Program-made: the position numbers and the translations under genes | In this document: positions 37,994 through 51,926 of the stretch, one piece after another | Layout: each line of letters opens with the position of its first letter | Numbering within the stretch: position 1 is the stretch's first letter | NCBI GenBank assembly: GCA_049968235.1 | Contig: JBMFRC010000012.1 | Location: 1-64,000, forward strand | Direction of reading: 5' to 3' | Source: Candidatus Hydrogenedens sp. | GTDB lineage: Bacteria; Hydrogenedentota; Hydrogenedentia; Hydrogenedentales; Hydrogenedentaceae | Length of the DNA stretch: 64,000 nt | The notes under the pieces: generated by a model | Databases searched by the model: none | What the model was told of the DNA's origin: nothing | Seen by the model: the letters and a program-made list of their open reading frames with translations, nothing else

Positions 37994-38022
37994 TTGACAA
38001 GGAGTAAACAGTGTGCTATAAT
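37994..38022 (+). promoter_or_regulatory. Consensus sigma70 promoter, TTGACA - 17 nt - (TGc)TATAAT, upstream of rex
   Basis: TTGACA lies at 37994-37999 and TATAAT at 38017-38022. The TG of the extended -10 is at 38014-38015. Confidence 0.65.
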
Positions 38023-38084
38023 TTGTTCATAAATTCACAATTATACTTACAGGTAAGTATATAAATTTGTTTGTAAATTCACAA
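38023..38084 (+). promoter_or_regulatory. Two direct-repeat Rex-box-like operators (TTGTTCATAAATTCACAA and TTGTTTGTAAATTCACAA) flanking a perfect 7-2-7 palindrome TACTTACAGGTAAGTA
   Basis: The boxes are at 38023-38040 and 38067-38084. Each has a perfect TTCACAA right half-site and a degenerate left half-site, compared with the Rex consensus TTGTGAAnnnnTTCACAA. Box 1 abuts the -10 element. Confidence 0.55.
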
Positions 38085-38101: not shown

Positions 38102-38797
38102 ATGGTATCTGAGAAAACAGTAGAAAGATTAAGTTTATACCGCCGAATACTTCAACAATTGAGGGTCGAGAGTAAAGAAACTATAATGTCCCATGAACTT
38201 GCGAATATGTTACACATAAAGCCAGCACAGGTACGCAGGGATATTATGCAATTAGGTTATTCAGGAATACCTAATAGTGGTTATAGAATTCGACCTCTTT
38301 TAGAGAGTATTGCAAATTTTTTAGATTCCCCGTTGCCTCAGAGTGCTGTTTTAGTAGGTGTTGGACATTTAGGACTTGCGTTATTGGCTAACTTTGCAGG
38401 ACGATGGAGGCAATTAGCTATTCGTGCCTCTTTTGATAAAGACCCTGCAAAAGTAGGACAGACTTTTCATGGTTGTCGTTGTTATGCTATGTGTGATTTG
38501 CAAAAAGTAATTGCGGAGACAAAAAGTGTAGTAGGCATCCTGGCAATACCGGGTGAAAGTGCCCAATCTGTTTGTGACCTTCTTGTTCAGTCAGGTATTA
38601 GTGGCGTATTAAATTTTTCCCCATTGCGAATTAAAGTGCCTGATAATGTCTTTATAGAACATGTTGACCTTTCCGCTACGTTTGAAAAAGTTTCGTTCTT
38701 TGCAAGAAGAATGAAACATTATGCAGAAGAAGAAAAACGGAAAGTAGAAAATGAAATTACTGAGGGTGAATACGAAACATTAACAACCAATCAATAA
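38102..38797 (+). CDS. rex: Redox-sensing transcriptional repressor Rex
   Basis: The N-terminal winged helix reads TVERLSLYRRIL. The Rossmann fold reads AVLVGVGHLGLALL, and a C-terminal swap helix is present. Confidence 0.85.
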   Translation: MVSEKTVERLSLYRRILQQLRVESKETIMSHELANMLHIKPAQVRRDIMQLGYSGIPNSGYRIRPLLESIANFLDSPLPQSAVLVGVGHLGLALLANFAGRWRQLAIRASFDKDPAKVGQTFHGCRCYAMCDLQKVIAETKSVVGILAIPGESAQSVCDLLVQSGISGVLNFSPLRIKVPDNVFIEHVDLSATFEKVSFFARRMKHYAEEEKRKVENEITEGEYETLTTNQ

Positions 38798-38823: not shown

Positions 38824-39348
38824 ATGAATGAAGAATCAAAGCATGCGTGTATGGAAGAAGCAAGTGAAGAAGAACTGCTTGCTCGGCTTGATGAAGTAAT
38901 TGCAGAATATAAGGACAAGCCCGGTGCTCTTATTCCTGTTCTGCAGATTGCTCAGGCTATGTTTGGTTATCTACCCGAAAGTGCATTAAAAAAGATTAGT
39001 TTGGGACTGAACAAACCGTATAGTGAAGTTGCAGGTGTGGTAACATTTTACTCATTCTTTTCAACCCAGCCTCGTGGAAAACATATGATTCGTGTCTGTT
39101 TAGGAACTGCTTGTTATGTCCGTGGTGGCAAACAGGTTCTTTCTGCAATTAAGGATAAACTCCATATTGATGTTGGAGAGACCACGAAAGACCGTATGTT
39201 CTCTTTAGAGGTGGCTCGTTGTTTTGGTGCTTGTGGGCTTGCTCCTGCCATTATGGTGGATAACGATGTGCATCAACGGGTAAAACCTGCCCGAATTCAG
39301 GCTATTTTAGACCAGTATTTAGACAAAAACACAGAAAAAAATAAATAA
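38824..39348 (+). CDS. hndA: NuoE-like [2Fe-2S] subunit of an NAD(P)-linked [FeFe]-hydrogenase (HndA / HydC-like)
   Basis: It has a thioredoxin-like fold with 2Fe-2S Cys ligands (CLGTACYVRG...CFGACGLAP). It is ~174 aa, and its RBS is AGGAGA. Confidence 0.82.
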   Translation: MNEESKHACMEEASEEELLARLDEVIAEYKDKPGALIPVLQIAQAMFGYLPESALKKISLGLNKPYSEVAGVVTFYSFFSTQPRGKHMIRVCLGTACYVRGGKQVLSAIKDKLHIDVGETTKDRMFSLEVARCFGACGLAPAIMVDNDVHQRVKPARIQAILDQYLDKNTEKNK

Positions 39349-39370: not shown

Positions 39371-39742
39371 ATGTCAAATATTATTCATTCTCCAGAAGAC
39401 CTTAATGCTTTACGAGAAAAGGCAATTAAGGACATTGAGATTCGTAATTCACATAAAGATTTGGTGATTACTGTTCACATGGGAACATGTGGTATTGCTG
39501 CGGGTGCCAGAGAAGTATTAAAAAATATCATCTCTGAAATTTCTGCTATAGGTATAACCAATGTTACAGTCCGTCAATCTGGATGTGCAGGTCTCTGCGA
39601 CCGTGAACCCATGATTACGGTTACTCATAAATCCTCCGGTTCTGAATATCGTTATGGAAAATTAAACACGGAAAAGATACGAGAAATTGTGAAACAGCAT
39701 ATTGCAGAAGGTAAACCTGTGATGGAATATTTAATTTCCTGA
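39371..39742 (+). CDS. hndB: Small thioredoxin-like [2Fe-2S] ferredoxin subunit (HndB-like)
   Basis: The 2Fe-2S ligand motifs are HMGTCGIAAGA and SGCAGLCDREPM. It is 123 aa, and its RBS is AAGGAGA. Confidence 0.72.
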   Translation: MSNIIHSPEDLNALREKAIKDIEIRNSHKDLVITVHMGTCGIAAGAREVLKNIISEISAIGITNVTVRQSGCAGLCDREPMITVTHKSSGSEYRYGKLNTEKIREIVKQHIAEGKPVMEYLIS

Positions 39743-39825
39743 TGAAGAAATACAGGGTAAATTCGGATTCCCATAAAGTGGTTGAGATGAACATGTATAG
39801 CAAAATAAGAAAGAATGATATAGAA

Positions 39826-41342: not shown

Positions 41343-44300
41343 ATGAGTCCATTTCGAAGTCATGTATTAATCTGTGCAGGTGCAGGATGCGTGGCATCAG
41401 GTTCGATGGAAGTAAGTTCCGCCTTTTCGGAGGCACTTGCCAAACATGGGCTAAATGAAGAAATTCAAGTAGTCCATACAGGATGTTTAGGACCCTGTGC
41501 TATTGGTCCCGTGGTCGTGATTTATCCAGATGCTATTTTTTATCAAGGTGTTAAAACAACAGATGTTGAAGATATTGTTGTTGAGCATCTGTTAAAAGGT
41601 CGGCCTGTTAGTCGCTTGAATTTCAAATCTACTACCACATCACAAATTATTCCTGCACTGCAGGAGATTGGTTTTTTCAAGCAACAGACAAAGATAGTTT
41701 TAAGGAACTGTGGTATTATAGACCCTACAAAAATTGAGGAGTATATTGCGAGAGATGGGTATCAGGCTTTAGCAAAAGTACTGACAAAAATGACTCCACA
41801 GCAGGTAGTAGAAGAAGTGAAAAAATCTGGACTTCGGGGAAGAGGTGGTGCAGGATTCCCAACAGGTATAAAGTGGGAGTTAACTCAAAAAGCCCACGGA
41901 GATAAGAAATATGTTCTTTGTAATGCTGATGAAGGTGACCCGGGCGCATTTATGGACAGAAGTGTTTTGGAAGGTGACCCCCATAGTGTTATTGAAGCTA
42001 TGATTATAGCAGGATATGCCATTGGTTCTGACCAGGGATATATTTATGTTCGAGCAGAATATCCTTTAGCGGTAGAGAGATTAAATATAGCGATAAAGCA
42101 AGCCAGAGAATATGGTTTGTTAGGTAAGAATATTATGGGAACGAATTTTAATTTCGACCTTGAAATACGAATGGGTTCAGGTGCTTTTGTGTGTGGAGAA
42201 GAAACCGCATTGATGCGTTCTATCGAAGGGAAACGCGGAGAACCCAGACCCCGTCCACCGTTCCCTGCATATAAAGGTTTATGGGAAAAACCCAGTTTAT
42301 TAAATAATGTAGAAACCTATGCAAACATCCCTGTAATTATATTAAAAGGTGCTGATTGGTTTGCTTCCATAGGAACAGGTAAAAGTAAAGGAACAAAAGT
42401 GTTTGCCTTAGCAGGTGCTGTAAACAACACAGGATTGGTCGAAATTCCGATTGGTACACCATTAGGTGAAATTATTTATGATATTGGCGGTGGAATTCCG
42501 CGAGGCAAACAATTTAAGGCAGCGCAAATTGGAGGTCCTTCCGGCGGTTGTATTCCAAAACAACATCTGAATGTGCCGGTAGATTACGAGTCATTACAGG
42601 AATTAGGAGCGATTATGGGTTCCGGTGGATTAATTGTTATGGATGAAGACACATGTATGGTCGATATGGCTCGTTTCTTCCTTGACTTTGTTCAGGATGA
42701 GTCATGTGGAAAATGTGTCCCATGCCGGGTCGGAACGAAAAGAATGTTGGAAATTGTGACAAGGATTTGTGAGGGTCGGGGAGAAGAAGGCGATATTGAA
42801 AAACTTATTGAATTAGGACAACAGATTAAAGATGCATCGTTATGTGGATTAGGGCAGACAGCTCCAAACCCTGTTCTTTCTGCAATACGGCACTTCCGTG
42901 ATGAATTTGAAATTCATATTCGTGAACATAAATGTCCGGCGGGTGTCTGTCCATCTCTTGTTCGTGCTCCTTGTATGAGTGCTTGCCCGGCAAATGTTTA
43001 CATTCCGGGTTTTGTCTCATTAATATCTGAAAAACGATATGCGGAAGCACTTCGTGTGCATCGTGACCAGAACCCCTTTGCATCTGTATGTGCCCGTGTG
43101 TGTTTCCATACTTGTGAGGACAAATGTAGAAGAGCTACTCTGGATGAAGCGGTATCCATACGCGGATTGAAGCGATTTATGGTAGAGCAAGAAGTTACAA
43201 TACAACTACCTGAAATTCGTGAAAATGAACAAAATCTTCGCAAAAAGGTGGCTATTATAGGAGCAGGTCCTGCAGGTCTAACCTGTGCTTATTTCCTTGC
43301 ACGATTAGGCTATCAACCCCGTGTTTTTGAATCTGCACCCAGGCCCGGCGGTATGTTAGTTCAAACAATTCCCGCTTATCGGTTACCCCGAGAAGAATTG
43401 GCTCGAGAAATTCGTATGATAGAAAGAATGGGCGTTGTCATAGAAACTGAAAAAGCCTTAGGTCGTGATTTTACATTACAAAGCCTTCGTGATGATGGAT
43501 ATGAGGCTATTTTTCTCGGAATAGGTGCTCCATCAGGTCAAAAATTGAGAATTCCAGGCGAAGATGCGGATGGCGTTGTCGAAGCCATAGACTTCCTTCG
43601 TGAATACAATCTCCGTGGTTCTGTTCCTGTAGGGAAAAATGTTGTTATTATAGGAGGTGGTAATGCAGCTATTGATGCGGCAAGAACTGCCATTCGTTTA
43701 GGAGCAAAAAAAGCAACGATTCTTTACCGCAGAACAAGAGAAGAGATGCCTGCGTATAAAGAAGAGATCGAAGAAGCAGTTAATGAAGGTGTTATTTTAA
43801 AAATGTTAGTAACTCCACTGGAGATTTTGACAGAAAACGGAAAAGTTGTTGGTGTAAAATGTCAACACATGTGGTTAGGAGAATATGACCGTTCCGGTAG
43901 AAGAAGACCTGAAGCCAAAAAGGGTGAAGAACCCTTTGTTGAAGAAGCAGACCAGGTTATTGCAGCAATAGGGCAAACTGTTGATTTAAAACGTTACCTG
44001 GATGGATTAAATGTTAAGTTAACACCTTCTGGTTTCTTGTGGGTAGACCAATTATATGGTCAGACCTCTATTGAATGGTTATTTGCAGGTGGTGATATTA
44101 GTTCAGGTCCTTCTTCCGTAGCAGAAGCAATCGGTGCTGGTGAAAGAGCTGCAGTTGGAATTGATAAGTATCTTACTGGAGAAGAACATGCTTTCTGGCG
44201 CGAACCCTATATGGTAGATACAGAATTTGACCCAGATTCCGACCCGGTAGATTTCCCAAGAGCAAAAATGAAACTTTTACCTGTTGAAAAGAGGGTACAC

Positions 44301-44414
44301 AACTTTAATGAAGTTGAAATCCCGTTTACGGAAACATTAGCGGTAAGAGAGGCACGCCGTTGCTTACGTTGTGATTATCGTGAAACAAAAATAAGTTTAA
44401 ATACACAACAATAA
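41343..44414 (+). CDS. hndC: NuoF-like flavoprotein subunit (HndC-like) fused to a C-terminal GltD/NfnB-like NAD(P)H oxidoreductase. The tracked ORF starts at 41307; the RBS-supported start is 41343.
   Basis: The N-terminal thioredoxin-like 2Fe-2S domain reads LICAGAGCVASG...CLGPCAIGP. The NuoF core carries GRGGAGFPTGIKW and ESCGKCVPCRVGT. A 2x[4Fe-4S] region follows, then the GltD-like part: CARVCFHTCEDKCRR, FAD GxGxxG (AIIGAGPAGLTCAYFLA) and NAD(P) GxGxxA (VVIIGGGNAAIDAAR). AAGGAG lies 7 nt before the 41343 ATG. Confidence 0.85.
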   Translation: MSPFRSHVLICAGAGCVASGSMEVSSAFSEALAKHGLNEEIQVVHTGCLGPCAIGPVVVIYPDAIFYQGVKTTDVEDIVVEHLLKGRPVSRLNFKSTTTSQIIPALQEIGFFKQQTKIVLRNCGIIDPTKIEEYIARDGYQALAKVLTKMTPQQVVEEVKKSGLRGRGGAGFPTGIKWELTQKAHGDKKYVLCNADEGDPGAFMDRSVLEGDPHSVIEAMIIAGYAIGSDQGYIYVRAEYPLAVERLNIAIKQAREYGLLGKNIMGTNFNFDLEIRMGSGAFVCGEETALMRSIEGKRGEPRPRPPFPAYKGLWEKPSLLNNVETYANIPVIILKGADWFASIGTGKSKGTKVFALAGAVNNTGLVEIPIGTPLGEIIYDIGGGIPRGKQFKAAQIGGPSGGCIPKQHLNVPVDYESLQELGAIMGSGGLIVMDEDTCMVDMARFFLDFVQDESCGKCVPCRVGTKRMLEIVTRICEGRGEEGDIEKLIELGQQIKDASLCGLGQTAPNPVLSAIRHFRDEFEIHIREHKCPAGVCPSLVRAPCMSACPANVYIPGFVSLISEKRYAEALRVHRDQNPFASVCARVCFHTCEDKCRRATLDEAVSIRGLKRFMVEQEVTIQLPEIRENEQNLRKKVAIIGAGPAGLTCAYFLARLGYQPRVFESAPRPGGMLVQTIPAYRLPREELAREIRMIERMGVVIETEKALGRDFTLQSLRDDGYEAIFLGIGAPSGQKLRIPGEDADGVVEAIDFLREYNLRGSVPVGKNVVIIGGGNAAIDAARTAIRLGAKKATILYRRTREEMPAYKEEIEEAVNEGVILKMLVTPLEILTENGKVVGVKCQHMWLGEYDRSGRRRPEAKKGEEPFVEEADQVIAAIGQTVDLKRYLDGLNVKLTPSGFLWVDQLYGQTSIEWLFAGGDISSGPSSVAEAIGAGERAAVGIDKYLTGEEHAFWREPYMVDTEFDPDSDPVDFPRAKMKLLPVEKRVHNFNEVEIPFTETLAVREARRCLRCDYRETKISLNTQQ

Positions 44415-44431: not shown

Positions 44432-46204
44432 ATGCCAAAATTAACTATAGATGGAATTCCCGTAGAAGTTCCGGAAGGAACAACAATACTTCAAGCGGCA
44501 AAGCAAATAGGATTAAAAATACCGACACTTTGTTATCTTGAAGAAGTTCAAGCCATCGGTGCCTGTCGTGTTTGCGTTGTTGAAGTTGAAGGAGCACGAA
44601 CTTTGGTCGCTTCTTGTGTTGCTCCTGTTGCGGAAGGAATGAAAGTCCATACAAATTCAAAAAGAGCCCGTGAGGCACGAAAAACAGTTGTAGAATTGTT
44701 ACTATCCGACCATGATGGCGATTGCCAGATTTGTGTTCGAAATGAAGATTGTGAACTTCAGGAATTGGCACGAACACTTGGGATAAAGGAAATTCGCTAT
44801 CAAGGTGAGAAGAGAAAACGGATTGTGGATGAAAGCACTCCCGCTGTTGTTCGTGATACATCGAAATGTGTCTTATGTAGAAGATGTATAACGGTTTGCA
44901 ATGAGGTTCAGGGTGTTGGCGGACTGTTCCCACAAAATCGTGGCTTTGAAACGGTAATAGGTCCCGCATTTTGTAGTGATTTGGATGATGTCGTATGTGT
45001 TCAGTGTGGTCAATGTAGTGCGGTTTGTCCTGTGGGTGCTATTGTAGAAAGAGACCAGATTGCGGATGTCTTTTCTGCATTAGATGACCCGACAAAAACA
45101 GTCGTTGTCCAGACAGCCCCTGCAATTCGTGCCGCATTGGGAGAATGTTTTGGTTTACCACCCGGAACTTTAGTAACAGGGAAGATGGTTACCGCACTTC
45201 GTAGACTGGGTTTCCATGCCGTTTTTGATACTAACTTTGCCGCTGACCTTTGTATTATGGAAGAAGGTACAGAACTGCTAACTCGATTGAAGAAAAAACT
45301 GGTAGATGGGGAGAATATTGCTCTTCCTATGTTTACCAGTTGTTCTCCGGGGTGGATTAAGTTTTTAGAACATTTCTACCCGGATATGATTCCAAATGTA
45401 TCTACATGCAAATCCCCACAGCAAATGTTTGGTGCTATAGCAAAGACCTATTATTCCAAGAAAATTGGTAAGAAACCCGAAGATATTGTTGTTGTTTCTA
45501 TTATGCCCTGTACAGCGAAGAAATATGAACATCAGCGTCCCGAGATGAACAGTTCCGGTGTTCGTGATGTGGACTATGTGCTTACAACGCGTGAATTGGG
45601 TCGGATGATAAAACAGGCAGGCATTGATTTTGTAAATCTACCCGATGACAAGCAAGACTCACCATTAGGACTATCCTCTGGTGCTGCGGATATTTTTGCG
45701 AATACCGGGGGTGTTATGGAAGCGGCAATTCGAACTGTTTATGAAATAGTAACAGGACGCGAATTACCATTCGATGGACTTCATGTTGCTCCTATCGAAG
45801 GATTAGAAGGAATCAAGGAAGCCTCCTTGAAGATAGAAAAATGTGTGCCTGAATGGTCTTTCTTAGAAGGGGCTACCGTAAATGTTGCTGTGGCTCATGG
45901 ATTGGGTAATGCCAGAGCATTAATAGAGCGAGTTCGCTCAGGTGAAAAGGCGTATCACTTTATAGAAATTATGACCTGTCCCGGTGGATGTATTGGTGGA
46001 GGAGGACAACCTCGCTTTACAGATAATTCAGTTCGTCTTGCTCGTATTCAGGCCATATACAAAGAGGATGAAGGGAAACAACTTCGTAAGTCCCATGTAA
46101 ATCCTGACATACAAAAATTGTATAAGGAATTTTTAGGACATCCGAATAGTGAAGTTTCACATCATCTATTACATACGCATTACAATCCGAGAACAAAAGT
46201 ATAA
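44432..46204 (+). CDS. hndD: [FeFe]-hydrogenase catalytic subunit, M3 architecture (HndD/HydA-like), with non-canonical L1 motif TSCSPGW
   Basis: It has an N-terminal 2Fe-2S domain, a His-ligated 4Fe-4S (HDGDCQICVRNEDC) and two ferredoxin-like 4Fe-4S clusters. The H-cluster motifs are L2 MPCTAKKYE and L3 EIMTCPGGCIGG. The L1 motif reads FTSCSPGW. Confidence 0.88.
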   Translation: MPKLTIDGIPVEVPEGTTILQAAKQIGLKIPTLCYLEEVQAIGACRVCVVEVEGARTLVASCVAPVAEGMKVHTNSKRAREARKTVVELLLSDHDGDCQICVRNEDCELQELARTLGIKEIRYQGEKRKRIVDESTPAVVRDTSKCVLCRRCITVCNEVQGVGGLFPQNRGFETVIGPAFCSDLDDVVCVQCGQCSAVCPVGAIVERDQIADVFSALDDPTKTVVVQTAPAIRAALGECFGLPPGTLVTGKMVTALRRLGFHAVFDTNFAADLCIMEEGTELLTRLKKKLVDGENIALPMFTSCSPGWIKFLEHFYPDMIPNVSTCKSPQQMFGAIAKTYYSKKIGKKPEDIVVVSIMPCTAKKYEHQRPEMNSSGVRDVDYVLTTRELGRMIKQAGIDFVNLPDDKQDSPLGLSSGAADIFANTGGVMEAAIRTVYEIVTGRELPFDGLHVAPIEGLEGIKEASLKIEKCVPEWSFLEGATVNVAVAHGLGNARALIERVRSGEKAYHFIEIMTCPGGCIGGGGQPRFTDNSVRLARIQAIYKEDEGKQLRKSHVNPDIQKLYKEFLGHPNSEVSHHLLHTHYNPRTKV

Positions 46205-46223: not shown

Positions 46224-46247
46224 GGGGAGTGTGAGTGAGCACTCCCC
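46224..46247 (+). terminator. Stable hairpin after hndD: 8-bp GC-rich stem GGGGAGTG / CACTCCCC with an 8-nt loop and no U-tract
   Basis: It lies 20 nt downstream of the hndD stop. It may be a partial terminator or an RNA-stability element. Confidence 0.4.
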
Positions 46248-46329: not shown

Positions 46330-46725
46330 ATGGAAAATAAAATTATAATGGTCGTTGATGATGATATTGATGTTCAGGATTTCTGTAAAATTGTATTAGG
46401 AAGAGAGGATTATCAGGTTATAACATTTTCCAACTCAGAGAGTGCACTCGAATATTTATCGTCGAACACTCCCTCTGTAATTATTACCGATTTAATGATG
46501 GGTGGAATTGATGAGGGTGTCCAATTTGTTAATAAGATTAGAGGATTCGATAATGAGAAGGCAAAAATTCCAATTATAATGATTACAGGCATAAATTCAA
46601 AATTAGGATATGACATCACTCCCCGTTCCGATGAAGAAAAAAAACAAATGAAAATCGATGAATTTATATCAAAACCTTTAAATCCAAAACAGTTAATAAC
46701 AGCACTAAAAAAAGTAATCAAATAG
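46330..46725 (+). CDS. Stand-alone response-regulator receiver (REC) domain protein
   Basis: The acidic pocket reads VVDDD. The phospho-acceptor Asp lies in VIITDLMM, and a conserved Lys is present. It is 131 aa with no output domain. Confidence 0.8.
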   Translation: MENKIIMVVDDDIDVQDFCKIVLGREDYQVITFSNSESALEYLSSNTPSVIITDLMMGGIDEGVQFVNKIRGFDNEKAKIPIIMITGINSKLGYDITPRSDEEKKQMKIDEFISKPLNPKQLITALKKVIK

Positions 46726-46777: not shown

Positions 46778-48175
46778 ATGAGTTCAAATGTAGAAACTGT
46801 TCCTATTAATGAGGAATTTATTTTTGATACTTTAAAAAATAGTGTCAAGAAAGATGCGGTTTACATCAAAGAAATTCTTGCAAAAGCCCTTGAATTAAAG
46901 GGATTAGATGCGACAGAAGTAGCCACGCTTGCAACAATAAGTGACCCTGACCTGTTAAAAGAACTTTTCGATACAGCCCGAAAAGTCAAAGAGGAGATTT
47001 ACGGTAAACGATTAGTTCTTTTTGCCCCACTTTATGTATCAAATCTTTGCAAGAATGAATGCTTATATTGTGCTTTCCGTAAAAGTAACAAGATGGTTCG
47101 TAGAAAAGCATTGACACAAGAAGAAGTCCGTAGAGAGGTTGAAACATTGGTTGACCAGGGGCATAAACGCATTCTATTAGTGGCAGGCGAGTCCTATCCT
47201 TCCGAAGGATTTGATTATGTTATTCATTGTATCGAAACAATATATAGTGTAAAGCGGGATAGGGGAGAGATACGACGCGTAAATGTGAATATAGCACCCT
47301 TATCGTTAGAGGAATTTAAAAGGCTGAAATCAGCAAAAATTGGGACATATCAGTTATTTCAAGAAACATACCACAGAGAAACATACCAAAAAGTCCATGT
47401 AGGTGGACTTAAAAAGGATTTTGACTGGAGAATTACCGCTATGGACCGTGCTATGAAAGCTGGCATTGATGATGTGGGTGTTGGCGTTCTTTTTGGCTTA
47501 TTTGATTGGAGATTTGAAATACTTGCTTTAATGCAACATATTAAACATTTAGAAGATACCTTCGGTGTAGGATGTCACACGATAAGTGTACCTCGCCTTG
47601 AACCTGCTATAGGTTCAGACCTGGCTTCACATCCCCCTTATCCGGTATCAGACCTTGATTTCAGAAAAATTGTAGCTATACTAAGACTTGCTGTGCCCTA
47701 TACAGGAATAATAATGTCCACTCGTGAAACTCCCAATATACGAAGAGAAACCTTTGCACTGGGTGTATCACAAATATCAGCAGGCAGTAGAACGAATCCA
47801 GGTGGGTATACAGGCAGTGAAGAAGAGGATATGAGCCAATTCTCATTAGGTGACCATCGCAGTCTGGATGAGGTTATTCGTGATGTTACAAAATTAGGTT
47901 ATATCCCATCCTTCTGCACGGCTTGTTATCGTTTAGGCAGAACAGGTGCTGACTTTATGGACCTTGCCAAGCCGGGTCTTATCAAGAACCATTGTGAAGT
48001 TAATGCTTTAAGCACTTTTGCTGAATATCTGGAAGATTATGCATCCTCCGAAACAAAACAAATAGGTTGGGCAAAGATTGAGGAAATTTTAAATACAATG
48101 CCTGAAGTTCGGAAAAAACGTACCGAAGGGATGTTGGCTCGTGTAAAAGCCGGTGAACGGGATGTATATGTGTAA
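46778..48175 (+). CDS. hydG: [FeFe]-hydrogenase maturase HydG (radical SAM tyrosine lyase, ThiH-like)
   Basis: The radical SAM motif is CKNECLYC. The ~465 aa length and a C-terminal auxiliary-cluster Cys motif (FCTACYRLGRTG) fit HydG. It sits in the hyd cluster. Confidence 0.85.
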   Translation: MSSNVETVPINEEFIFDTLKNSVKKDAVYIKEILAKALELKGLDATEVATLATISDPDLLKELFDTARKVKEEIYGKRLVLFAPLYVSNLCKNECLYCAFRKSNKMVRRKALTQEEVRREVETLVDQGHKRILLVAGESYPSEGFDYVIHCIETIYSVKRDRGEIRRVNVNIAPLSLEEFKRLKSAKIGTYQLFQETYHRETYQKVHVGGLKKDFDWRITAMDRAMKAGIDDVGVGVLFGLFDWRFEILALMQHIKHLEDTFGVGCHTISVPRLEPAIGSDLASHPPYPVSDLDFRKIVAILRLAVPYTGIIMSTRETPNIRRETFALGVSQISAGSRTNPGGYTGSEEEDMSQFSLGDHRSLDEVIRDVTKLGYIPSFCTACYRLGRTGADFMDLAKPGLIKNHCEVNALSTFAEYLEDYASSETKQIGWAKIEEILNTMPEVRKKRTEGMLARVKAGERDVYV

Positions 48176-48180
48176 ATCTT

Positions 48181-49602
48181 ATGTCAGACTACCGAATTGA
48201 AACCGACTTATTGGGTGAAAAAAAGATACCTGCGGATGTCTATTGGGGTATACATACTGCTCGTGCAGTAGAAAATTTTCCTGTTTCCCGACTCTCGGTT
48301 CATTCAGAATTAATCCAATCTTATGGAATTGTAAAACTTGCATGTGCAAAAATAAATTATTCGTTAGGATACTTATTACATCCTCCTGATAAATCATCTG
48401 CCATATTTAACGCTTGCGAAGAAGTAGCAATTGGTAAATGGAATGACCATATTATCGTGGATGCTCTACAGGGTGGAGCAGGAACCAGCACAAATATGAA
48501 TATTAATGAGGTTATTGCCAACCGTGCCCTAGAAATATTGGGCTTACCACGGGCAAAATATGACATTATTTCCCCATTAGATGATATAAATCTTCACCAA
48601 TCGACTAACGATACTTATCCTACCGCCCTGAAACTTGCTACGATAAGGATGTTAAGAAAATTAGAATCAGAAATTATTCTTCTTTTAGAGACATTTCAAA
48701 CACTTGAAAAACAATTTTCGGACATAGTAAAAATTGGAAGGACAGAACTTCAAGATGCAACGCCTATTACATTAGGTAGGGAGATGGGTGCTTATGCAGA
48801 TGCCCTAGTAAGAGACCGTTGGCGTATCTATAAGTGTGAAGAAAGATTGCGAGTAGTTAATTTAGGAGGCACCGCAATAGGAACAGGTTTAGGAGCACCA
48901 AGGGATTATATTTTCCGTGTTGTAGATAATCTGCGAGAGTTATCAAATATCGGTTTTTCGCGAGCAGAAAATTTAGTAGATGCAACTCAAAATCTCGATG
49001 TATTTGGGGAAGTATCAGGTATCATTCGTTCCTATGCCATAACGCTTAATAAAATAGCCAATGATTTGAGACTAATGTCATCCGGACCCGAAGCAGGTCT
49101 CCGTGAAATTCAACTTCCACAATTACAAGCGGGTTCATCTATTATGCCAGGGAAAGTGAACCCTGTTTTGCCTGAAGCGGTATGCCAGGTTGCAATGCTA
49201 ACATTTGGATTCGACCAGATTATCACATATGGCTGTTCTTCCGGAAACCTTGAACTAAATCCTTTTGTCCCTTTGATTGCTCATTGTTTGTTAAATATGA
49301 TTGAAATGTTAACAAATGTAACAAAATTATTTACGGAAAAATGTATTAAAGGAATTTCGCCGAACCGAGAGGTTTGTGTTTCCTATGTGAATAATTCTAC
49401 AGCAACTCTAACCGCACTTATACAGAAGATAGGATATGAAAAAGCATGTATGATTGCTAAAAAAACAAGTAATTTGAAAAAGAGTATTCGAGAAATTGTA
49501 TTGGAAGAAGGAGTTTTGACTCCTGAAGAATTTGATACTCTTTTAAGTCCTGAGTCCGTTTGTAAATTAGGATTTGTTGACACCAGTAATGAGATAGATT
49601 AG
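48181..49602 (+). CDS. aspA: Aspartate ammonia-lyase-like protein (fumarase/aspartase superfamily)
   Basis: The N-terminus IETDLLGEKKIPADVYWGIHTARAVENF is aspartase-like. The superfamily signature GSSIMPGKVNP is present. Confidence 0.78.
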   Translation: MSDYRIETDLLGEKKIPADVYWGIHTARAVENFPVSRLSVHSELIQSYGIVKLACAKINYSLGYLLHPPDKSSAIFNACEEVAIGKWNDHIIVDALQGGAGTSTNMNINEVIANRALEILGLPRAKYDIISPLDDINLHQSTNDTYPTALKLATIRMLRKLESEIILLLETFQTLEKQFSDIVKIGRTELQDATPITLGREMGAYADALVRDRWRIYKCEERLRVVNLGGTAIGTGLGAPRDYIFRVVDNLRELSNIGFSRAENLVDATQNLDVFGEVSGIIRSYAITLNKIANDLRLMSSGPEAGLREIQLPQLQAGSSIMPGKVNPVLPEAVCQVAMLTFGFDQIITYGCSSGNLELNPFVPLIAHCLLNMIEMLTNVTKLFTEKCIKGISPNREVCVSYVNNSTATLTALIQKIGYEKACMIAKKTSNLKKSIREIVLEEGVLTPEEFDTLLSPESVCKLGFVDTSNEID

Positions 49603-49611
49603 GAAGGAAAT

Positions 49612-50865
49612 ATGCTTAGAGCATCACCAAAATCATTTCGACTGCATATTGGTTTTTTTGGTAGAAGGAATGTTGGAAAATCCAGTTTACTTAATGCAAT
49701 TACACGACAAAATGTCTCAATTGTTTCTGAATCCGCAGGAACCACAACAGACCCCGTGGAAAAACCTATGGAACTACTACCTTTAGGTCCTGTTCTATTC
49801 ATTGATACTGCGGGCATTGATGATATAGGTGCTTTAGGAGAATTACGGATACAAAAAACAAGACAAATTTTTGACCGAACCGATGTTGCGGTTGTTGTTA
49901 CAGAAGCCGGTATATGGGGAGAATTTGAGGAAGGCTTGTGTAATGAGTTTAAGTCAAGAAATGTTCCTATCGTAGTTGTGTTTAACAAAGTGGACCTGCA
50001 TGAACCTGATGAAACATTGTGTAATAGGTTGAAAAATGAGAAAATTCTATATGTAAAGACTATTGCATCAAAGCAGGATGGTATTAGTGAACTCAAAAAT
50101 GCACTTATTTCTTCAGCCCCCGATGATTTTATAAATAGTCCAACGATTTTAGGAGATTTGGTAGCTCCTGGTGAATTGGCTGTGCTTGTCGTGCCTATAG
50201 ATAAAGAAGCACCTAAAGGAAGACTTATTATGCCTCAGGTTCAATCCATCCGTGATTTGTTAGATAACGATGCTATGTGTGTTGTCGTAAAAGAAAGAGA
50301 ACTCCGGCGAATTTTAGAACAATTAAAAATTCTTCCAAAGATTGTTGTTACTGATTCCCAGGCATTCTTAAAAGTCGTCGCAGATACTCCTTCCAATGTA
50401 TGGGTTACAAGTTTTTCAATATTATTTTCAAGATTCCGCGGAGATTTAATTACACAGGTGGAAGGAACACTTGCTATCGAATCATTGAAACCCGGAGATA
50501 AAATACTTATTGCAGAATCATGCTCGCATCACCCTATTGCCGATGATATAGGAAGGGTTAAAATACCAAGATGGTTAATGCAATATATCGGTGGAAAATT
50601 AGAATTTGATACTGTTCAGGGAAATGATTTTTTTTCAGATTTAACAAAATATAAAATGGTTATACACTGTGGAGCATGCACACTCAATCGCCGTGCTATG
50701 TTAAATCGTATTATGCATTGCAAAAAACAAGGGATACCAATAAGTAATTACGGGTTAACTATAGCCTATTCTTTAGGTATCCTCGAAAGGGCATTAGAAC
50801 CATTCCCATCCGCATTGGAAATATATAAACAGAAAACAACAAAAAAGTTGCAAAACATTAAATAA
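49612..50865 (+). CDS. hydF: [FeFe]-hydrogenase maturation GTPase/scaffold HydF
   Basis: The P-loop is GRRNVGKSSLLN with NKVD alongside. The C-terminal Fe-S motif is CSHHP...HCGACT (CxHx~50HCxxC). Confidence 0.85.
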   Translation: MLRASPKSFRLHIGFFGRRNVGKSSLLNAITRQNVSIVSESAGTTTDPVEKPMELLPLGPVLFIDTAGIDDIGALGELRIQKTRQIFDRTDVAVVVTEAGIWGEFEEGLCNEFKSRNVPIVVVFNKVDLHEPDETLCNRLKNEKILYVKTIASKQDGISELKNALISSAPDDFINSPTILGDLVAPGELAVLVVPIDKEAPKGRLIMPQVQSIRDLLDNDAMCVVVKERELRRILEQLKILPKIVVTDSQAFLKVVADTPSNVWVTSFSILFSRFRGDLITQVEGTLAIESLKPGDKILIAESCSHHPIADDIGRVKIPRWLMQYIGGKLEFDTVQGNDFFSDLTKYKMVIHCGACTLNRRAMLNRIMHCKKQGIPISNYGLTIAYSLGILERALEPFPSALEIYKQKTTKKLQNIK

Positions 50866-50873
50866 AATAAAAC

Positions 50874-51926
50874 ATGGATAAAAAAAATATTATTAATTGG
50901 CTTCGTGAAAAAAACGAAGATAAATTAAACGAACTATGGGAATTGGCGGATTCTATCCGCAGTAAATATGTAGGAGAAGAGGTGCATCTTCGAGGTTTGA
51001 TAGAAATATCAAACTATTGCAAAAAAAACTGTCTATACTGTGGAATACGAATTTCTAATAGAAAATTAACCCGATATAGAATGGAAGACAGCGAGATTTT
51101 GGAATGTGTGGAATTTGCCAAAAGAAATGGCTATGGAACAATAGTCCTTCAATCCGGCGAAGACCCCGATTTTACAAAAGAAAAAATCGCCGAATTAATT
51201 AGAAAAATAAAAGAAAATGCAAATGTGGCTATTACATTAAGTTTAGGAGAGCAGGAAAAACACACATTAGAATTATGGAAATCTGCCGGAGCCAATCGTT
51301 ATCTTCTTCGTTTTGAAACCTCAGATGAAATCCTATTTAAAAGAATCCATTCGTCAGAACAAGCAAAAAGTTTAGAGAATAGAATTAAACAACTAAAAAT
51401 ACTTAAACAATTAGGCTACGAAGCAGGAAGTGGGATAATGATTGGAATACCCTATCAAACTTATGAAAGCATCGCTAATGATATCCTACTTTTCAAACAA
51501 TTAGACCTTGATATGATAGGAATAGGACCATACATTCCTCATCCCGATACACCTTTAGGACAGGAATATCTTAATAAATATAAAAAAGATGATGAAAAAT
51601 TTGTCCCAAACACAGAATTAATGACATATAAAGTCCTTGCATTAACCCGAATTATATGTCCAACCGTAAACATTCCTGCCACCACTGCCCTTGCAACTGT
51701 GAATACACGAGAAGGTCGCATTTTAGCCCTGAAGAGGGGAGCCAATGTTATCATGCCGAATCTCACTCCACCAAAATATAAAAAATTGTATGAAATTTAT
51801 CCAGGTAAATCGTCTGCTGATGAACCTCCAGAAATTATTCATCAAAGTATAATGAAGATTATAGAAAAGGCAGGAAGAAAAGTAGGAACAGGGATGGGAA
51901 ATCGCAAAAAAATCATAGATATTTAA
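50874..51926 (+). CDS. hydE: [FeFe]-hydrogenase maturase HydE (radical SAM, BioB-like)
   Basis: The radical SAM motif is CKKNCLYC. It is ~350 aa, and the TIM-barrel radical SAM core resembles BioB/HydE. Confidence 0.85.
   Translation: MDKKNIINWLREKNEDKLNELWELADSIRSKYVGEEVHLRGLIEISNYCKKNCLYCGIRISNRKLTRYRMEDSEILECVEFAKRNGYGTIVLQSGEDPDFTKEKIAELIRKIKENANVAITLSLGEQEKHTLELWKSAGANRYLLRFETSDEILFKRIHSSEQAKSLENRIKQLKILKQLGYEAGSGIMIGIPYQTYESIANDILLFKQLDLDMIGIGPYIPHPDTPLGQEYLNKYKKDDEKFVPNTELMTYKVLALTRIICPTVNIPATTALATVNTREGRILALKRGANVIMPNLTPPKYKKLYEIYPGKSSADEPPEIIHQSIMKIIEKAGRKVGTGMGNRKKIIDI

What the first reader, a model, noticed from the sequence alone, without database searches (positions are those of the whole stretch)
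41343..44414. NuoF-like hydrogenase diaphorase subunit fused to a GltD/NfnB-like NAD(P)H oxidoreductase (about 1,020 aa)
One ORF carries the complete HndC/NuoF module and then a complete glutamate-synthase-small-subunit-like module. The NuoF part has an N-terminal 2Fe-2S domain, an FMN/NADH site, the N3 4Fe-4S cluster and two ferredoxin-like clusters. The GltD-like part has an N-terminal Cys cluster and FAD and NAD(P) Rossmann motifs. GltD-like partners are normally separate genes in the glutamate-synthase-linked class of [FeFe] hydrogenases. NuoF is the flavoprotein of bifurcating trimeric enzymes. A covalent fusion of the two would create a two-flavin, two-nucleotide-site electron hub. It could plausibly work as an NADH/NADPH-coupled or Nfn-like bifurcating/confurcating hydrogenase.
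Basis: seen in the sequence. Interest (0 to 1): 0.68.

Follow-up and report, generated by a model that had tools for sequence, protein, structure and literature searches.

The report
Hydrogenase flavoprotein with fused NADPH module
The fused gene is real and widespread: an [FeFe]-hydrogenase flavoprotein whose usual ferredoxin-docking end is replaced by an NADPH/FAD module, but this architecture was already described for this bacterial phylum in 2024 and nobody has tested its chemistry.

Summary
The ORF 41343-44414 (+) is intact and encodes 1,023 aa. It has a good ribosome-binding site and lies in a rex-hydC-bfuD-(GH42-like)-bfuB-hydA operon, followed by hydG, hydF and hydE. It is not an assembly artefact. 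More than 120 protein clusters and 53 genomes from many phyla encode the same full-length fusion, and every cofactor motif is conserved.

The HydB/HndC C-terminal 2x[4Fe-4S] ferredoxin domain (clusters B3/B4) is absent. The GltD-like module takes its place, seven residues after the zinc hinge.

That module is not a canonical GltD. It is the circularly permuted type found in StnC/NfnA, the BfuA subunit of Nfn-Bfu transhydrogenases. It has the EAxRCLxC element at the C-terminus and the Stn-type Lys, not the NfnB-type Glu, at the cluster next to FAD.

Zheng & Huang (mSystems 2024) already describe this architecture as "sub-type I BfuABDC" of Hydrogenedentota. No biochemistry exists.

The most likely function is a Bfu-type hydrogenase that couples H2 to NAD(H) at FMN and to NADP(H) at a non-bifurcating FAD wired in place of the ferredoxin branch. 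This mechanism is inferred, not shown. Verdict: already known, moderate interest.

The parts
37994..38022 (+). Sigma-70-type promoter (TTGACA-17-TATAAT, with TG extension)
   Evidence: It is the only 12/12 match in 37.8-46.8 kb. It ends one base before the first Rex box.
38023..38084 (+). Two Rex-operator-like inverted repeats, TTGTTCATAAATTCACAA (38023-38040) and TTGTTTGTAAATTCACAA (38067-38084)
   Evidence: The same paired boxes lie upstream of rex in L081, L084 and L085, and one lies upstream of the Rex homologue in the Omnitrophota locus L050. The refined pattern was derived post hoc. The loose consensus alone is not above chance in the window.
38102..38797 (+). rex (redox-sensing repressor, 231 aa)
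   Evidence: Pfam Put_DNA-bind_N plus CoA_binding.
38824..39348 (+). hydC/bfuC (NuoE-like, carries the C1 [2Fe-2S] cluster, 174 aa)
   Evidence: Pfam 2Fe-2S_thioredx at E=1.9e-51, full length. The CLGTAC...CFGAC cysteines are present.
39371..39742 (+). bfuD (HndB-like small thioredoxin-fold protein, 123 aa)
   Evidence: Weak Pfam 2Fe-2S_thioredx match. It is present in many but not all fusion loci. It corresponds to BfuD of sub-type I (PMC11406978).
39742..41271 (+). GH42/DUF4832-like gene with an N-terminal signal or lipoprotein-like peptide. It is a lineage-specific insertion in the operon and probably not part of the enzyme.
   Evidence: Pfam DUF4832 at 7.6e-10 and Glyco_hydro_42 at 5e-8. 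The leader reads MKMNILHLFLILFLCSS. The gene is present only in relatives of at least 91% identity. It is absent from L086-L088 and from all 80 genome loci.
41343..44414 (+). bfuB::gltD-like fusion (1,023 aa), the finding itself
41343..41600 (+). N-terminal thioredoxin-like [2Fe-2S] domain (B5), with ligands C11, C16, C48 and C52
41817..42332 (+). FMN/NAD(H) domain (GLRGRGGAGFPTG, NADEGDPGAF, GEETAL)
   Evidence: Pfam Complex1_51K at 2.6e-46. The motifs are invariant.
42663..42917 (+). N3/B1 [4Fe-4S] four-helix domain (C455, C458, C461, C501)
   Evidence: Pfam NADH_4Fe-4S at 2.1e-35. Conserved in 53 of 53 loci.
42915..42962 (+). Zn/'B2' hinge (H525, C531, C536, plus C438 upstream)
   Evidence: Aligns with HIRxxKCPAGVC of solved HydB chains. 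Matches the Tsi NfnB ligands C437, H524, C529 and C534 (PMC12018979). Conserved in 53 of 53 loci.
42963..43193 (+). Fer4_20 (DPD_II) domain carrying 2x[4Fe-4S], in the place of B3/B4. Candidate ligands are C544, C548, C583, C587, C591, C595 and K610.
43242..44141 (+). FAD and NADP(H) Rossmann domains (GAGPAGL 640-646; GGGNAAIDAAR 771-781; YRRTREEMPA 795-804; GGD 916-918)
   Evidence: Pfam Pyr_redox_2 at 3.9e-29. Aligns with NADPH-bound StnC. R796 and R797 are conserved in 52 of 53 loci.
44238..44381 (+). C-terminal tail, which is the permuted N-terminal element of Fer4_20 (NFNEV...EARRCLRC; C1007, C1010)
   Evidence: The tail alone hits Fer4_20 profile positions 1-31 at E=4.9e-5. Joining the tail in silico before residue 541 raises the Fer4_20 score from 71.5 to 98.3 bits and extends coverage to profile 1-109. 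It aligns to StnC ~560-569. The cysteines are conserved in 52 of 52 loci.
44432..46204 (+). hydA/bfuA, the [FeFe]-hydrogenase catalytic subunit (M3-type, 590 aa)
   Evidence: Pfam Fer2_4, NADH-G_4Fe-4S_3, Fer4, Fe_hyd_lg_C (1.1e-98) and Fe_hyd_SSU. Motifs are P1 FTSCSPGW, P2 MPCTAKK and P3 CPGGC.
46224..46247 (.). GC-rich hairpin 20 nt after the hydA stop, a possible end of the transcription unit
46330..46725 (+). Stand-alone response-regulator receiver gene
   Evidence: Pfam Response_reg. It holds the same position after hydA in L081/L082, L087, L088 and L004.
46778..51926 (+). H-cluster maturation genes: hydG (46778-48175), an aspartase/fumarase-like gene (48181-49602), hydF (49612-50865) and hydE (50874-51926)
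   Evidence: Pfam Radical_SAM+BATS, Lyase_1, HydF_dimer/tetramer and Radical_SAM. The order is the same in L081.

Best explanation
This is the BfuB (HydB/HndC-like) flavoprotein of a Bfu-family, group A3-type [FeFe]-hydrogenase. It matches the 'sub-type I BfuABDC' of Hydrogenedentota.

Shown by sequence: the protein keeps the N-terminal [2Fe-2S] domain (B5), the FMN/NAD(H) site, the B1 [4Fe-4S] cluster and the Zn hinge. The mobile ferredoxin-like C-terminal domain (B3/B4) is replaced, seven residues after the hinge, by a ~480-aa StnC/NfnA-type GltD module. That module carries two [4Fe-4S] clusters, FAD and an NADP(H) site. It is circularly permuted and has the Stn-type Lys at the FAD-proximal cluster.

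Inferred mechanism: electrons pass between the H-cluster of HydA and the FMN/B1/C1 centre along the HydA cluster chain. NAD(H) reacts at FMN. The branch that normally runs from C1 through B3/B4 to ferredoxin instead runs from C1 through the two Fer4_20 clusters to FAD, where two single electrons are pooled to reduce NADP+ or are released from NADPH. FAD acts as an ordinary two-electron/one-electron converter, not as a second bifurcation site. The net reaction would be 2 H2 + NAD+ + NADP+ <-> NADH + NADPH + 2 H+, without ferredoxin.

The Rex repressor and its operators in front of the operon suggest expression when NADH accumulates. The physiological direction would then be H2 evolution that drains NADH together with the more reducing NADPH pool.
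For: Identity and reality of the fusion:
- The ORF and its domains are confirmed.
- The HydB-type part scores E about 1e-250 against solved HydB chains.
- More than 120 full-length clusters at 71-98% identity exist.
- 53 full-length genome copies come from more than 15 phyla.
- The neighbours are HydC and HydA.
- The literature describes the same architecture (PMC11406978).

Replacement of B3/B4:
- Alignments to HydB end at about residue 540.
- No Fer4 domain or Fd-type Cys motif is present.

Stn-type module:
- Bit scores are 407, 365 and 342 to 9bov_A, StnC 8oh5_C and NfnA 9n5u_A. They are 291 to NfnB 4ylf_B and 200 to GltD 2vdc_G.
- K610 aligns with StnC K170, where NfnB/NfnL has Glu. The position is K in 44, H in 9 and E in 0 of 53 fusions.
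- StnC K170 is strictly conserved and needed for activity, and the StnC FAD is non-bifurcating (PMC10482914).
- The C-terminal permuted element is confirmed.

NADPH site: the YRRTRxEMPA and GGGNAA motifs are shared with NADPH-bound StnC.

Role of B3/B4 as the low-potential exit to ferredoxin: PMC11829005 and PMC12018979.

Rex control: a perfect promoter abuts two Rex boxes, and the boxes are conserved in relatives and in an Omnitrophota locus.
Against: No activity, cofactor or structural data exist for any member of this sub-type. The wiring from C1 to the Fer4_20 clusters is inferred only from the module occupying the sequence position of B3/B4, and no distances were measured.

The standard potentials of the NAD and NADP couples are equal. 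Any energetic gain from coupling therefore rests on in-vivo pool ratios, which is my own estimate from general knowledge.

Deleting B3/B4 abolishes bifurcation in T. kivui HydABC, and enzymes that naturally lack B3/B4 are non-bifurcating. The complex could therefore be uncoupled.

Ferredoxin docking on the new module is not excluded, because in NfnSL ferredoxin docks near the distal cluster of the homologous subunit.

HydA carries FTSCSPGW instead of TSCCP. The effect of this on catalysis is unknown.
Confidence: 0.55

Rival explanations
1. The enzyme is an uncoupled, non-bifurcating hydrogenase with two donors. Having lost B3/B4, it behaves like the NADH-dependent HydAB(C) of Syntrophomonas and Syntrophus. 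The added module gives a second, independent entry for NADPH, or an exit to NADP+, into the same FeS wire. There is no obligatory 1:1 coupling of NADH and NADPH.
For: Natural or engineered loss of B3/B4 gives non-bifurcating enzymes (PMC11406978 citing S. wolfei; T. kivui deletion cited in PMC11829005). The StnC-type FAD is a simple electron entry point. Both nucleotide motifs are intact.
Against: The protein keeps features that non-bifurcating relatives tend to lose. These are the B5 domain and the Zn hinge (compare the statement that non-bifurcating homologues lack the B2-B5 sites). HydC with C1 is retained in every locus. The module sits exactly at the low-potential exit rather than on HydA, where Nfn-Bfu enzymes place their entry module.
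Confidence: 0.2
2. The enzyme is a four-substrate hub that still uses ferredoxin. The Fer4_20 clusters functionally replace B3/B4 and still reduce or oxidise ferredoxin, while FAD adds NADP(H). One complex would then combine HydABC and Nfn/Stn activities.
For: In the homologous NfnB/NfnL subunit the two [4Fe-4S] clusters lead to ferredoxin (PMC10482914 introduction). In the Tsi NfnABC structure ferredoxin docks between the BfuC C-terminal domain and the cluster-bearing domain of BfuB. Both elements have counterparts here.
Against: The module is Stn-type, and in Stn its clusters are internal wire with no ferredoxin site. The window holds no ferredoxin, PFOR or Rnf gene, although one could lie elsewhere in the genome.
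Confidence: 0.12
3. The FAD is a second, NfnB-like bifurcating centre that works alongside the FMN-FeS centre. This is the postulate of Zheng & Huang 2024 and is close to the first reader's 'Nfn-like' idea.
For: The fold is homologous to the bifurcating NfnB/NfnL subunit. The Arg of the IPxYRL motif (R680) is conserved. The proposal appears in PMC11406978.
Against: The Glu ligand that marks bifurcating NfnB/NfnL is never present. The position is K or H in 53 of 53 fusions. The nearest relatives are StnC and NfnA, whose FAD is experimentally and structurally non-bifurcating. The operon has no NfnA/NfnS-like partner to take the high-potential electron.
Confidence: 0.07
4. The fusion is an assembly or sequencing artefact, an indel that joined two ORFs.
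For: None found.
Against: The same single ORF occurs in more than 120 protein clusters and 53 species-level genomes from independent projects. The junction residues are invariant or nearly so. GC content does not change across the junction, at 0.415 versus 0.419. The domain boundary is a clean swap of the C-terminal domain at the Zn hinge.
Confidence: 0.01

Closest known systems
Sub-type I BfuABDC group A3 [FeFe]-hydrogenase of Hydrogenedentota (Zheng & Huang, mSystems 2024, PMC11406978)
   Same: The phylum-level origin matches: the closest named homologues are Candidatus Hydrogenedens/Hydrogenedentes. The gene order is C-D-B-A. BfuB has the B3/B4 domain replaced by DPD_II (Fer4_20) plus an FAD/NAD(P) domain. 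HydA is M3-type with Ser at P1 position 5.
   Different: There is no essential difference; the window encodes a member of this sub-type. The window and its relatives of at least 91% identity carry an extra GH42/DUF4832-like gene between bfuD and bfuB. The paper did not report the Stn-type affinity, the Lys ligand or the circular permutation of the module.
StnABC / NfnABC (Nfn-Bfu) transhydrogenases: Sporomusa ovata 8oh5, Caldicellulosiruptor 9n5u, Thermococcus sibiricus
   Same: The BfuB/BfuC core is the same: StnB 8oh5_B scores E=7e-210 over residues 12-540. The GltD-like module is the same permuted, Lys-bearing type with FAD and NADPH motifs.
   Different: In Nfn-Bfu the module is inserted in BfuA, at the mid-potential entry. 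BfuB keeps B3/B4 and reduces ferredoxin, and there is no H-cluster. Here the module is on BfuB in place of B3/B4, and BfuA is a true hydrogenase.
Electron-bifurcating HydABC / HndABCD [FeFe]-hydrogenases and NiFe-HydABCSL (T. maritima 7p5h, T. kivui / A. woodii 7q4v and 8a5e, 8a6t, A. mobile 7t2r)
   Same: The subunit set is HydA, HydB and HydC, with an HndB-like fourth gene. About 60-68% identity to unfused Firmicutes HydB extends over residues 1-540. The B5, FMN, B1 and Zn-hinge sites are all conserved.
   Different: The C-terminal ferredoxin-like domain (B3/B4) is missing. That domain accepts the low-potential electron and faces ferredoxin.
NfnAB / NfnSL (T. maritima 4ylf, P. furiosus 5jca)
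   Same: Homologous Fer4_20 plus FAD/NADPH fold (291 bits).
   Different: NfnB/NfnL has the canonical, unpermuted order and a Glu ligand at the proximal cluster. It has a bifurcating FAD and an NfnA/NfnS partner. None of these is present here.
Group A2 'glutamate-synthase-linked' [FeFe]-hydrogenases (HydDB class; from my own knowledge, not checked here)
   Same: A GltD-like NAD(P)H module is associated with an [FeFe]-hydrogenase.
   Different: In that class a separate GltD-like gene sits next to hydA without NuoE/NuoF-like subunits. Here the module is part of a NuoF-like BfuB in a HydABC-type operon.

Membership tests
Bfu family (bifurcating BfuABC; HydABC-type), as defined by Schut et al. 2022 and the 2025 cryo-EM papers | BfuB with an FMN/NAD(H) site and the B1 [4Fe-4S] cluster | tested here: met
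   Complex1_51K at 2.6e-46 and NADH_4Fe-4S at 2.1e-35. The motifs are invariant.
Bfu family (bifurcating BfuABC; HydABC-type) | BfuC (NuoE-like) with the C1 [2Fe-2S] cluster, encoded alongside | tested here: met
   hydC at 38824-39348, 2Fe-2S_thioredx at 1.9e-51. Present wherever sequence upstream of the fusion is available.
Bfu family (bifurcating BfuABC; HydABC-type) | Zn/'B2' site (His plus 3 Cys) between the core and the C-terminal domain, and an N-terminal B5 site | tested here: met
   C438, H525, C531 and C536 are conserved in 53 of 53 loci. C11, C16, C48 and C52 are present.
Bfu family (bifurcating BfuABC; HydABC-type) | BfuB C-terminal ferredoxin-like domain with the B3 and B4 [4Fe-4S] clusters | tested here: not met
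   No Fer4 domain or CxxCxxCxxxCP motif is present. HydB alignments end at about residue 540. The domain is replaced by Fer4_20 plus Pyr_redox_2.
Bfu family (bifurcating BfuABC; HydABC-type) | Ferredoxin- and NAD-dependent bifurcating or confurcating activity | not testable with these tools
   This needs enzyme assays.
Sub-type I BfuABDC (Zheng & Huang 2024) | BfuB with DPD_II (2x[4Fe-4S]) plus an FAD/NAD(P) domain in place of B3/B4 | tested here: met
.
Sub-type I BfuABDC (Zheng & Huang 2024) | Gene cluster C-D-B-A with an M3a-type BfuA carrying H-cluster motifs P1-P3 | tested here: met
   The order is hydC, bfuD, (an inserted gene), bfuB, hydA. P1 is FTSCSPGW, P2 is MPCTAKK and P3 is CPGGC.
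Sub-type I BfuABDC (Zheng & Huang 2024) | Phylogenetic placement within their sub-type I clade | tested here: inconclusive
   The closest named homologues are Candidatus Hydrogenedens/Hydrogenedentes at 75-91% identity. Their tree and accession list were not available to me, and I built only a rough NJ tree of my own loci.
Nfn-Bfu / StnABC transhydrogenase | GltD-like module with FAD and NADPH motifs and the strictly conserved Lys (StnC K170) at the proximal cluster | tested here: met
   K610 aligns with K170. The position is K in 44 and H in 9 of 53 loci.
Nfn-Bfu / StnABC transhydrogenase | The module is embedded in BfuA (NuoG-like, no H-cluster), and BfuB retains B3/B4 | tested here: not met
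   The module is at the C-terminus of BfuB. BfuA is a hydrogenase with Fe_hyd_lg_C at 1.1e-98.
NfnAB / NfnSL | Glu ligand at the FAD-proximal [4Fe-4S] cluster and the canonical N-terminal EAxRCLxC order | tested here: not met
   The position is Lys, not Glu. The EAxRCLxC element lies at the C-terminus.
NfnAB / NfnSL | NfnA/NfnS partner ([2Fe-2S] plus FAD, an FNR-like subunit) | tested here: not met
   No such gene is in the operon or in the 64-kb window. The rest of the genome is not available.
Group A2 glutamate-synthase-linked [FeFe]-hydrogenase | A separate GltD-like gene adjacent to hydA, with no NuoE/NuoF-type subunits | tested here: not met
   The GltD-like module is fused to a NuoF-like protein, and a NuoE-like hydC is present. 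The class definition comes from my own knowledge.

The most novel reading that the evidence does not exclude
The complex is a ferredoxin-independent hydrogenase that bifurcates or confurcates between two pyridine nucleotides. NADP(H), through the fused FAD module, takes the place of ferredoxin on the low-potential branch of the Bfu flavin-FeS centre. H2 production would then be driven jointly by NADH and NADPH in an obligatory 1:1 ratio. No enzyme with this reaction has been characterised. It would also serve as a natural rewiring experiment on how the Bfu centre splits electron pairs.
Probability: 0.3. Interest if true: 0.7.

Novelty: already known. Interest (0 to 1): 0.4.

Why it matters
How Bfu-family enzymes split electron pairs at an FMN-FeS centre is still unresolved. 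Every characterised member sends the low-potential electron to ferredoxin through B3/B4.

This is a widespread natural variant in which that exit is replaced by an FAD/NADP(H) module. It occurs with hydrogenase partners, with formate-dehydrogenase-like partners and, in one Asgard-archaeon bin, with glutamate-synthase-like partners. It offers a way to test what the low-potential branch requires.

It could also reveal a hydrogenase that links H2 directly to both nicotinamide pools.

The architecture is already published, so the remaining value is biochemical. The sequence-level additions made here are the Stn-type origin, the Lys ligand and the circular permutation. They narrow the hypotheses but do not settle them.

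Tried and rejected
(1) Frameshift or assembly artefact: rejected, because the single ORF is conserved in more than 150 independent assemblies and GC is continuous across the junction.

(2) Simple end-to-end fusion of hydB with a canonical gltD/nfnB gene: rejected. The Fer4_20 match starts at profile position 23-24, and the missing N-terminal element sits at the C-terminus. The best matches are StnC and NfnA, not GltD or NfnB.

(3) 'Complete HndC plus GltD': rejected, because B3/B4 is absent.

(4) NfnB-like bifurcating FAD: disfavoured by Lys or His at the Glu position in 53 of 53 fusions.

(5) The Schut 2022 Bfu catalogue was searched for GltD, fusion and NfnB terms. It does not mention this variant.

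(6) Literature searches for NuoF+GltD+fused and for HydB+glutamate synthase found no earlier biochemical report.

(7) The loose Rex consensus with 2 mismatches is not above chance in the window, at 4 matches against 5.1 expected. Only the position of the two sites and their conservation in relatives give them weight. The refined pattern was derived post hoc.

(8) A rough NJ tree of the NuoF parts nests unfused Firmicutes HydB among fused forms. This hints at more than one C-terminal-domain swap. The tree is a query-anchored, uncorrected-sample NJ tree, and I do not rely on it.

(9) Structure prediction was not run. The tools return no coordinates, so the decisive cofactor distances could not have been measured.

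(10) A literature search for the HydA 'TSCSP' motif gave only one relevant mention, in Melainabacteria.

Full report
OBSERVATION

The ORF is present and intact. An AGGAG sits 8 nt upstream of the ATG at 41343. Homologues of exactly 1,023 aa cover 100% of the query, so 41343 is the likely start.

Pfam places these domains along the protein:
- 2Fe-2S_thioredx at residues 6-79
- Complex1_51K at 159-330
- SLBB at 354-402
- NADH_4Fe-4S at 441-525
- Fer4_20 at 535-617
- Pyr_redox_2 at 634-933

The fusion of a NuoF/HydB-type flavoprotein with a GltD-type FAD/NAD(P)H module is therefore real.

A complete HydB/HndC ends in a ~55-residue 2x[4Fe-4S] ferredoxin-like domain, which carries clusters B3 and B4. 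That domain is absent here.
- Alignments to every solved HydB/StnB/NfnB chain stop at query residue ~540, right after HIREHKCPAGVCPSL. They leave the last ~55 residues of those chains unmatched.
- Pfam finds no Fer4 domain in this protein, although it finds them in the neighbouring HydA.
- The only CxxCxxC run among the 26 cysteines is the N3/B1 site.

Seven residues after the last hinge cysteine (C536), the Fer4_20 motif APC544MSAC548P begins. The 'two ferredoxin-like clusters' and the 'N-terminal Cys cluster of the GltD part' are the same cysteines. The module replaces B3/B4 rather than being added after it.

ARTEFACT TEST

The same single ORF is the top result of a search of 5.8 billion proteins. 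The best 120 clusters are nearly all full length (~1,010-1,060 aa, 96-100% coverage, 71-98% identity; four are truncated copies). The source names that exist are Candidatus Hydrogenedens/Hydrogenedentes, Phycisphaerae, Planctomycetota, Pirellulales and FCB group.

A scan of one genome per species, truncated at 600 candidates, returned 53 full-length copies at 43-76% identity. They come from bins labelled Verrucomicrobiota, Spirochaetaceae, Bacteroidales, Armatimonadota, Anaerolineae/Dehalococcoidia, Desulfobacterales, Smithella, Halanaerobiales, Clostridiales, Acidobacteriota, Omnitrophota and Gemmatimonadaceae, plus two archaeal bins.

GC content is the same on both sides of the junction, at 0.415 and 0.419. 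An indel artefact is excluded for practical purposes.

COFACTOR SITES

In an alignment of 13 fusions the following are invariant or nearly so:
- B5: C11, C16, C48, C52
- FMN/NADH site: GLRGRGGAGFPTG, NADEGDPGAF, GEETAL
- B1: C455, C458, C461, C501
- Hinge: C438, H525, C531, C536
- Fer4_20: C544, C548, C583, C587, C591, C595
- FAD: GAGPAGL
- NADP(H): GGGNAAxDAAR and YRRTRxEMPA
- GGD
- C-terminal tail: C1007, C1010

Across the 53 genome copies, B1, the hinge, six Fer4_20 cysteines and the tail cysteines are conserved in every copy in which they could be read. The RR of YRR is present in 52 of 53. Both leading B5 cysteines (C11 and C16) are kept in about two thirds of the copies; roughly a dozen have substitutions there and the rest are unread.

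The hinge residues correspond to the Zn site of T. sibiricus NfnB (C437, H524, C529, C534; PMC12018979). The refutation condition 'degenerate C-terminal domain' is therefore not met.

WHAT KIND OF GltD MODULE IT IS

Residues 521-1023 were searched against solved structures. The bit scores were:
- 407 to 9bov_A
- 365 to StnC 8oh5_C
- 342 to NfnA 9n5u_A
- 291 to T. maritima NfnB 4ylf_B
- 290 to P. furiosus NfnL 5jca_L
- 200 to glutamate synthase GltD
- 173 to dihydropyrimidine dehydrogenase

The three best matches all fall in residues ~101-567 of the large BfuA subunits of Nfn-Bfu/Stn transhydrogenases.

Two diagnostic features agree with this.

First, K610 aligns with StnC K170, while NfnB/NfnL has Glu at that position. 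K170 ligates the FAD-proximal cluster. It is strictly conserved in StnC and needed for activity, and the Glu-to-Lys difference is one of two changes linked to the loss of bifurcation by the StnC FAD (PMC10482914). The same is noted for Tsi NfnA. In 53 fusions this position is K in 44, H in 9 and E in none.

Second, the module is circularly permuted relative to GltD/NfnB. The Pfam Fer4_20 match begins only at profile position 23-24. The C-terminal tail (residues 966-1023) on its own matches Fer4_20 positions 1-31 at E=4.9e-5. Joining the tail in silico in front of residue 541 raises the score from 71.5 to 98.3 bits and gives coverage of positions 1-109. StnC and NfnA have the same arrangement, with RCLEC/RCMSC after the Rossmann domains.

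The fusion is therefore not a read-through between adjacent hydB and gltD genes. It is a swap of the C-terminal domain that uses a module type already circulating in the Bfu family.

CONTEXT IN THE WINDOW

The genes, in order, are:
- rex (38102-38797)
- hydC/bfuC (38824-39348)
- an HndB-like bfuD (39371-39742)
- a GH42/DUF4832-like gene (39742-41271)
- the fusion (41343-44414)
- hydA (44432-46204), with Fe_hyd_lg_C at 1e-98 and an M3 architecture
- a stand-alone receiver-domain gene
- hydG, an aspartase-like gene, hydF and hydE

A perfect sigma-70 promoter (37994-38022) abuts two inverted repeats, TTGTTCATAAATTCACAA and TTGTTTGTAAATTCACAA. The same boxes precede rex in three related loci, and one precedes the Rex homologue of an Omnitrophota locus. 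A GC-rich hairpin follows hydA.

From established knowledge of Rex, which represses its targets until NADH rises, this points to expression under NADH excess and hence to H2 evolution. This step is an inference.

The GH42-like gene has an export or lipoprotein-like leader. It occurs only in relatives of at least 91% identity. It is missing at 81%, 77% and 73% identity and in all 80 genome loci, where bfuD is directly followed by bfuB. I treat it as a lineage-specific insertion and not as a subunit.

PARTNERS ELSEWHERE

The 53 full-length fusions divide as follows:
- 18 are followed by a full-length HydA.
- 28 lie next to (downstream in most, a few kilobases upstream in six) a NuoG-like gene that matches only the N-terminal FeS part of HydA.
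- 7 sit at contig ends.

I inspected two of the 28. L027 has a formate-dehydrogenase-like subunit interrupted by an in-frame TGA within ...CARL-TGA-HSS..., consistent with selenocysteine. The Asgard bin L040 has a small [2Fe-2S] protein, a GltB-like (Glu_synthase) gene and flanking glutamate dehydrogenases.

The fused BfuB is thus a reusable module of the Bfu family and not a hydrogenase-specific oddity. HydC precedes it wherever sequence upstream of the fusion is available.

LITERATURE

Zheng & Huang (mSystems 2024, PMC11406978) catalogued 195 BfuABC clusters in 179 Hydrogenedentota genomes. They define sub-type I as 'BfuABDC'. [quoted passage not shown] They postulate a possible second bifurcating FAD centre and state that biochemistry is lacking.

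They also report relatives in Spirochaetota, Pseudomonadota, Planctomycetota, Verrucomicrobiota, Kiritimatiellota and Thermodesulfobacteriota, and they note that Ser is common at P1 position 5 of BfuA. The window matches this description in every tested respect.

The 2022 Bfu catalogue (PMC9304861) does not mention the variant, and I found no biochemical study. The finding is therefore already known as an architecture and uncharacterised as an enzyme.

MECHANISM

In characterised Bfu enzymes, electrons from BfuA reach a B1-FMN-C1 centre and NAD(H) reacts at FMN. The low-potential electron leaves on the mobile C1 domain of BfuC to B3/B4 and then to ferredoxin. Loss of B3/B4 abolishes bifurcation (PMC11829005 and PMC12018979).

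In the present protein the only redox centres after the Zn hinge are the two Fer4_20 clusters and FAD with an NADP(H) site.

The simplest reading, which I hold at about 0.55, is this. These clusters take over the B3/B4 position. FAD pools two single electrons, and NADP(H) replaces ferredoxin. The stoichiometry would be 2 H2 + NAD+ + NADP+ <-> NADH + NADPH + 2 H+. The Stn-type features argue that FAD is a plain two-electron/one-electron converter.

Energetically the coupling would pay only through the in-vivo difference between the NADPH and NADH pools. This is my estimate from general knowledge, not computed from data here.

The rivals are:
- an uncoupled enzyme with two independent donors (0.2)
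- retention of ferredoxin docking on the new module, giving a four-substrate hub (0.12)
- an assembly artefact (0.01 or less)

None of the first three can be excluded without enzyme assays or a structure.

VERDICT

Novelty: already known as sub-type I BfuB, published in 2024.

The additions made here are the StnC/NfnA-type origin, the conserved Lys/His and absent Glu, the circular permutation with C-terminal ligand cysteines, the use of the module with non-hydrogenase partners, and the Rex-controlled promoter.

Interest is 0.4. This is a good biochemical target bearing on an open mechanism, but it is not a surprise to specialists.

Noticed in passing
window 45335-45358 (HydA residues 302-309): The HydA P1 motif is FTSCSPGW instead of the canonical TSCCP. 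By one-to-one alignment with CpI, DdH and solved HydABC HydA chains, the Ser sits where the second Cys lies. From my own knowledge, that Cys (CpI C300, DdH C179) is a ligand of the H-cluster's [4Fe-4S]. TSCSP occurs in 35 of 38 HydA genes of related loci, including partners of ordinary unfused HydB. It has been mentioned for Melainabacteria and in the mSystems paper. Its catalytic consequences are unknown.
   Followed up: partly
window 39742-41271: A GH42/DUF4832-like gene with an export or lipoprotein-like leader (MKMNILHLFLILFLCSS) is wedged between bfuD and bfuB of a cytoplasmic hydrogenase operon. It is found only in relatives of at least 91% identity. It is absent from more distant Hydrogenedentota, from Phycisphaerae and from all 80 genome loci.
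   Followed up: partly
window 37994-38084: A perfect sigma-70 promoter (TTGACA-17-TATAAT) is followed directly by two Rex-box-like inverted repeats in front of rex-hydC. The boxes are conserved in L081, L084 and L085, and one is present in the Omnitrophota locus L050.
   Followed up: partly
window 46330-46725: A stand-alone response-regulator receiver gene lies immediately downstream of hydA. Its position is conserved in loci from Hydrogenedentota (L081/L082, L087), Phycisphaerae (L088) and Verrucomicrobiota (L004). Its role is unknown.
   Followed up: no
window 48181-49602: An aspartate ammonia-lyase/fumarase-like gene sits between hydG and hydF. The same position is seen in L081, and a homologue accompanies the maturase genes in the Armatimonadota locus L007.
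   Followed up: no
L040 7439-14749 (Promethearchaeota bin Loki_b31): An archaeal bin encodes NuoE-like, the NuoF::GltD fusion (46% identity), a 237-aa [2Fe-2S] protein, a GltB-like (Glu_synthase domain) protein and flanking glutamate dehydrogenases. This suggests a glutamate-synthase-like enzyme built on the same fused flavoprotein. The binning was not verified.
   Followed up: partly
L027 11067-13766: The fused BfuB is followed by a formate-dehydrogenase-like catalytic subunit interrupted by an in-frame TGA (CARL-TGA-HSS), which is probably selenocysteine. The fusion therefore also serves Fdh-type Bfu complexes.
   Followed up: partly
window 2716-4059: A single ORF combines ribosome-binding factor A (RBFA) with DHH/DHHA1 (NrnA-like phosphoesterase) domains.
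   Followed up: no
window 17471-19270 (- strand): A single ORF combines a MetX-like alpha/beta hydrolase with MetW. It lies next to a Cys/Met PLP enzyme gene.
   Followed up: no
window 27893-30715 and 31810-33198: A 940-aa protein is made almost entirely of EF-hand repeats and is also present in L084/L085. A di-haem cytochrome c peroxidase gene lies a few kilobases upstream of the hydrogenase operon.
   Followed up: no
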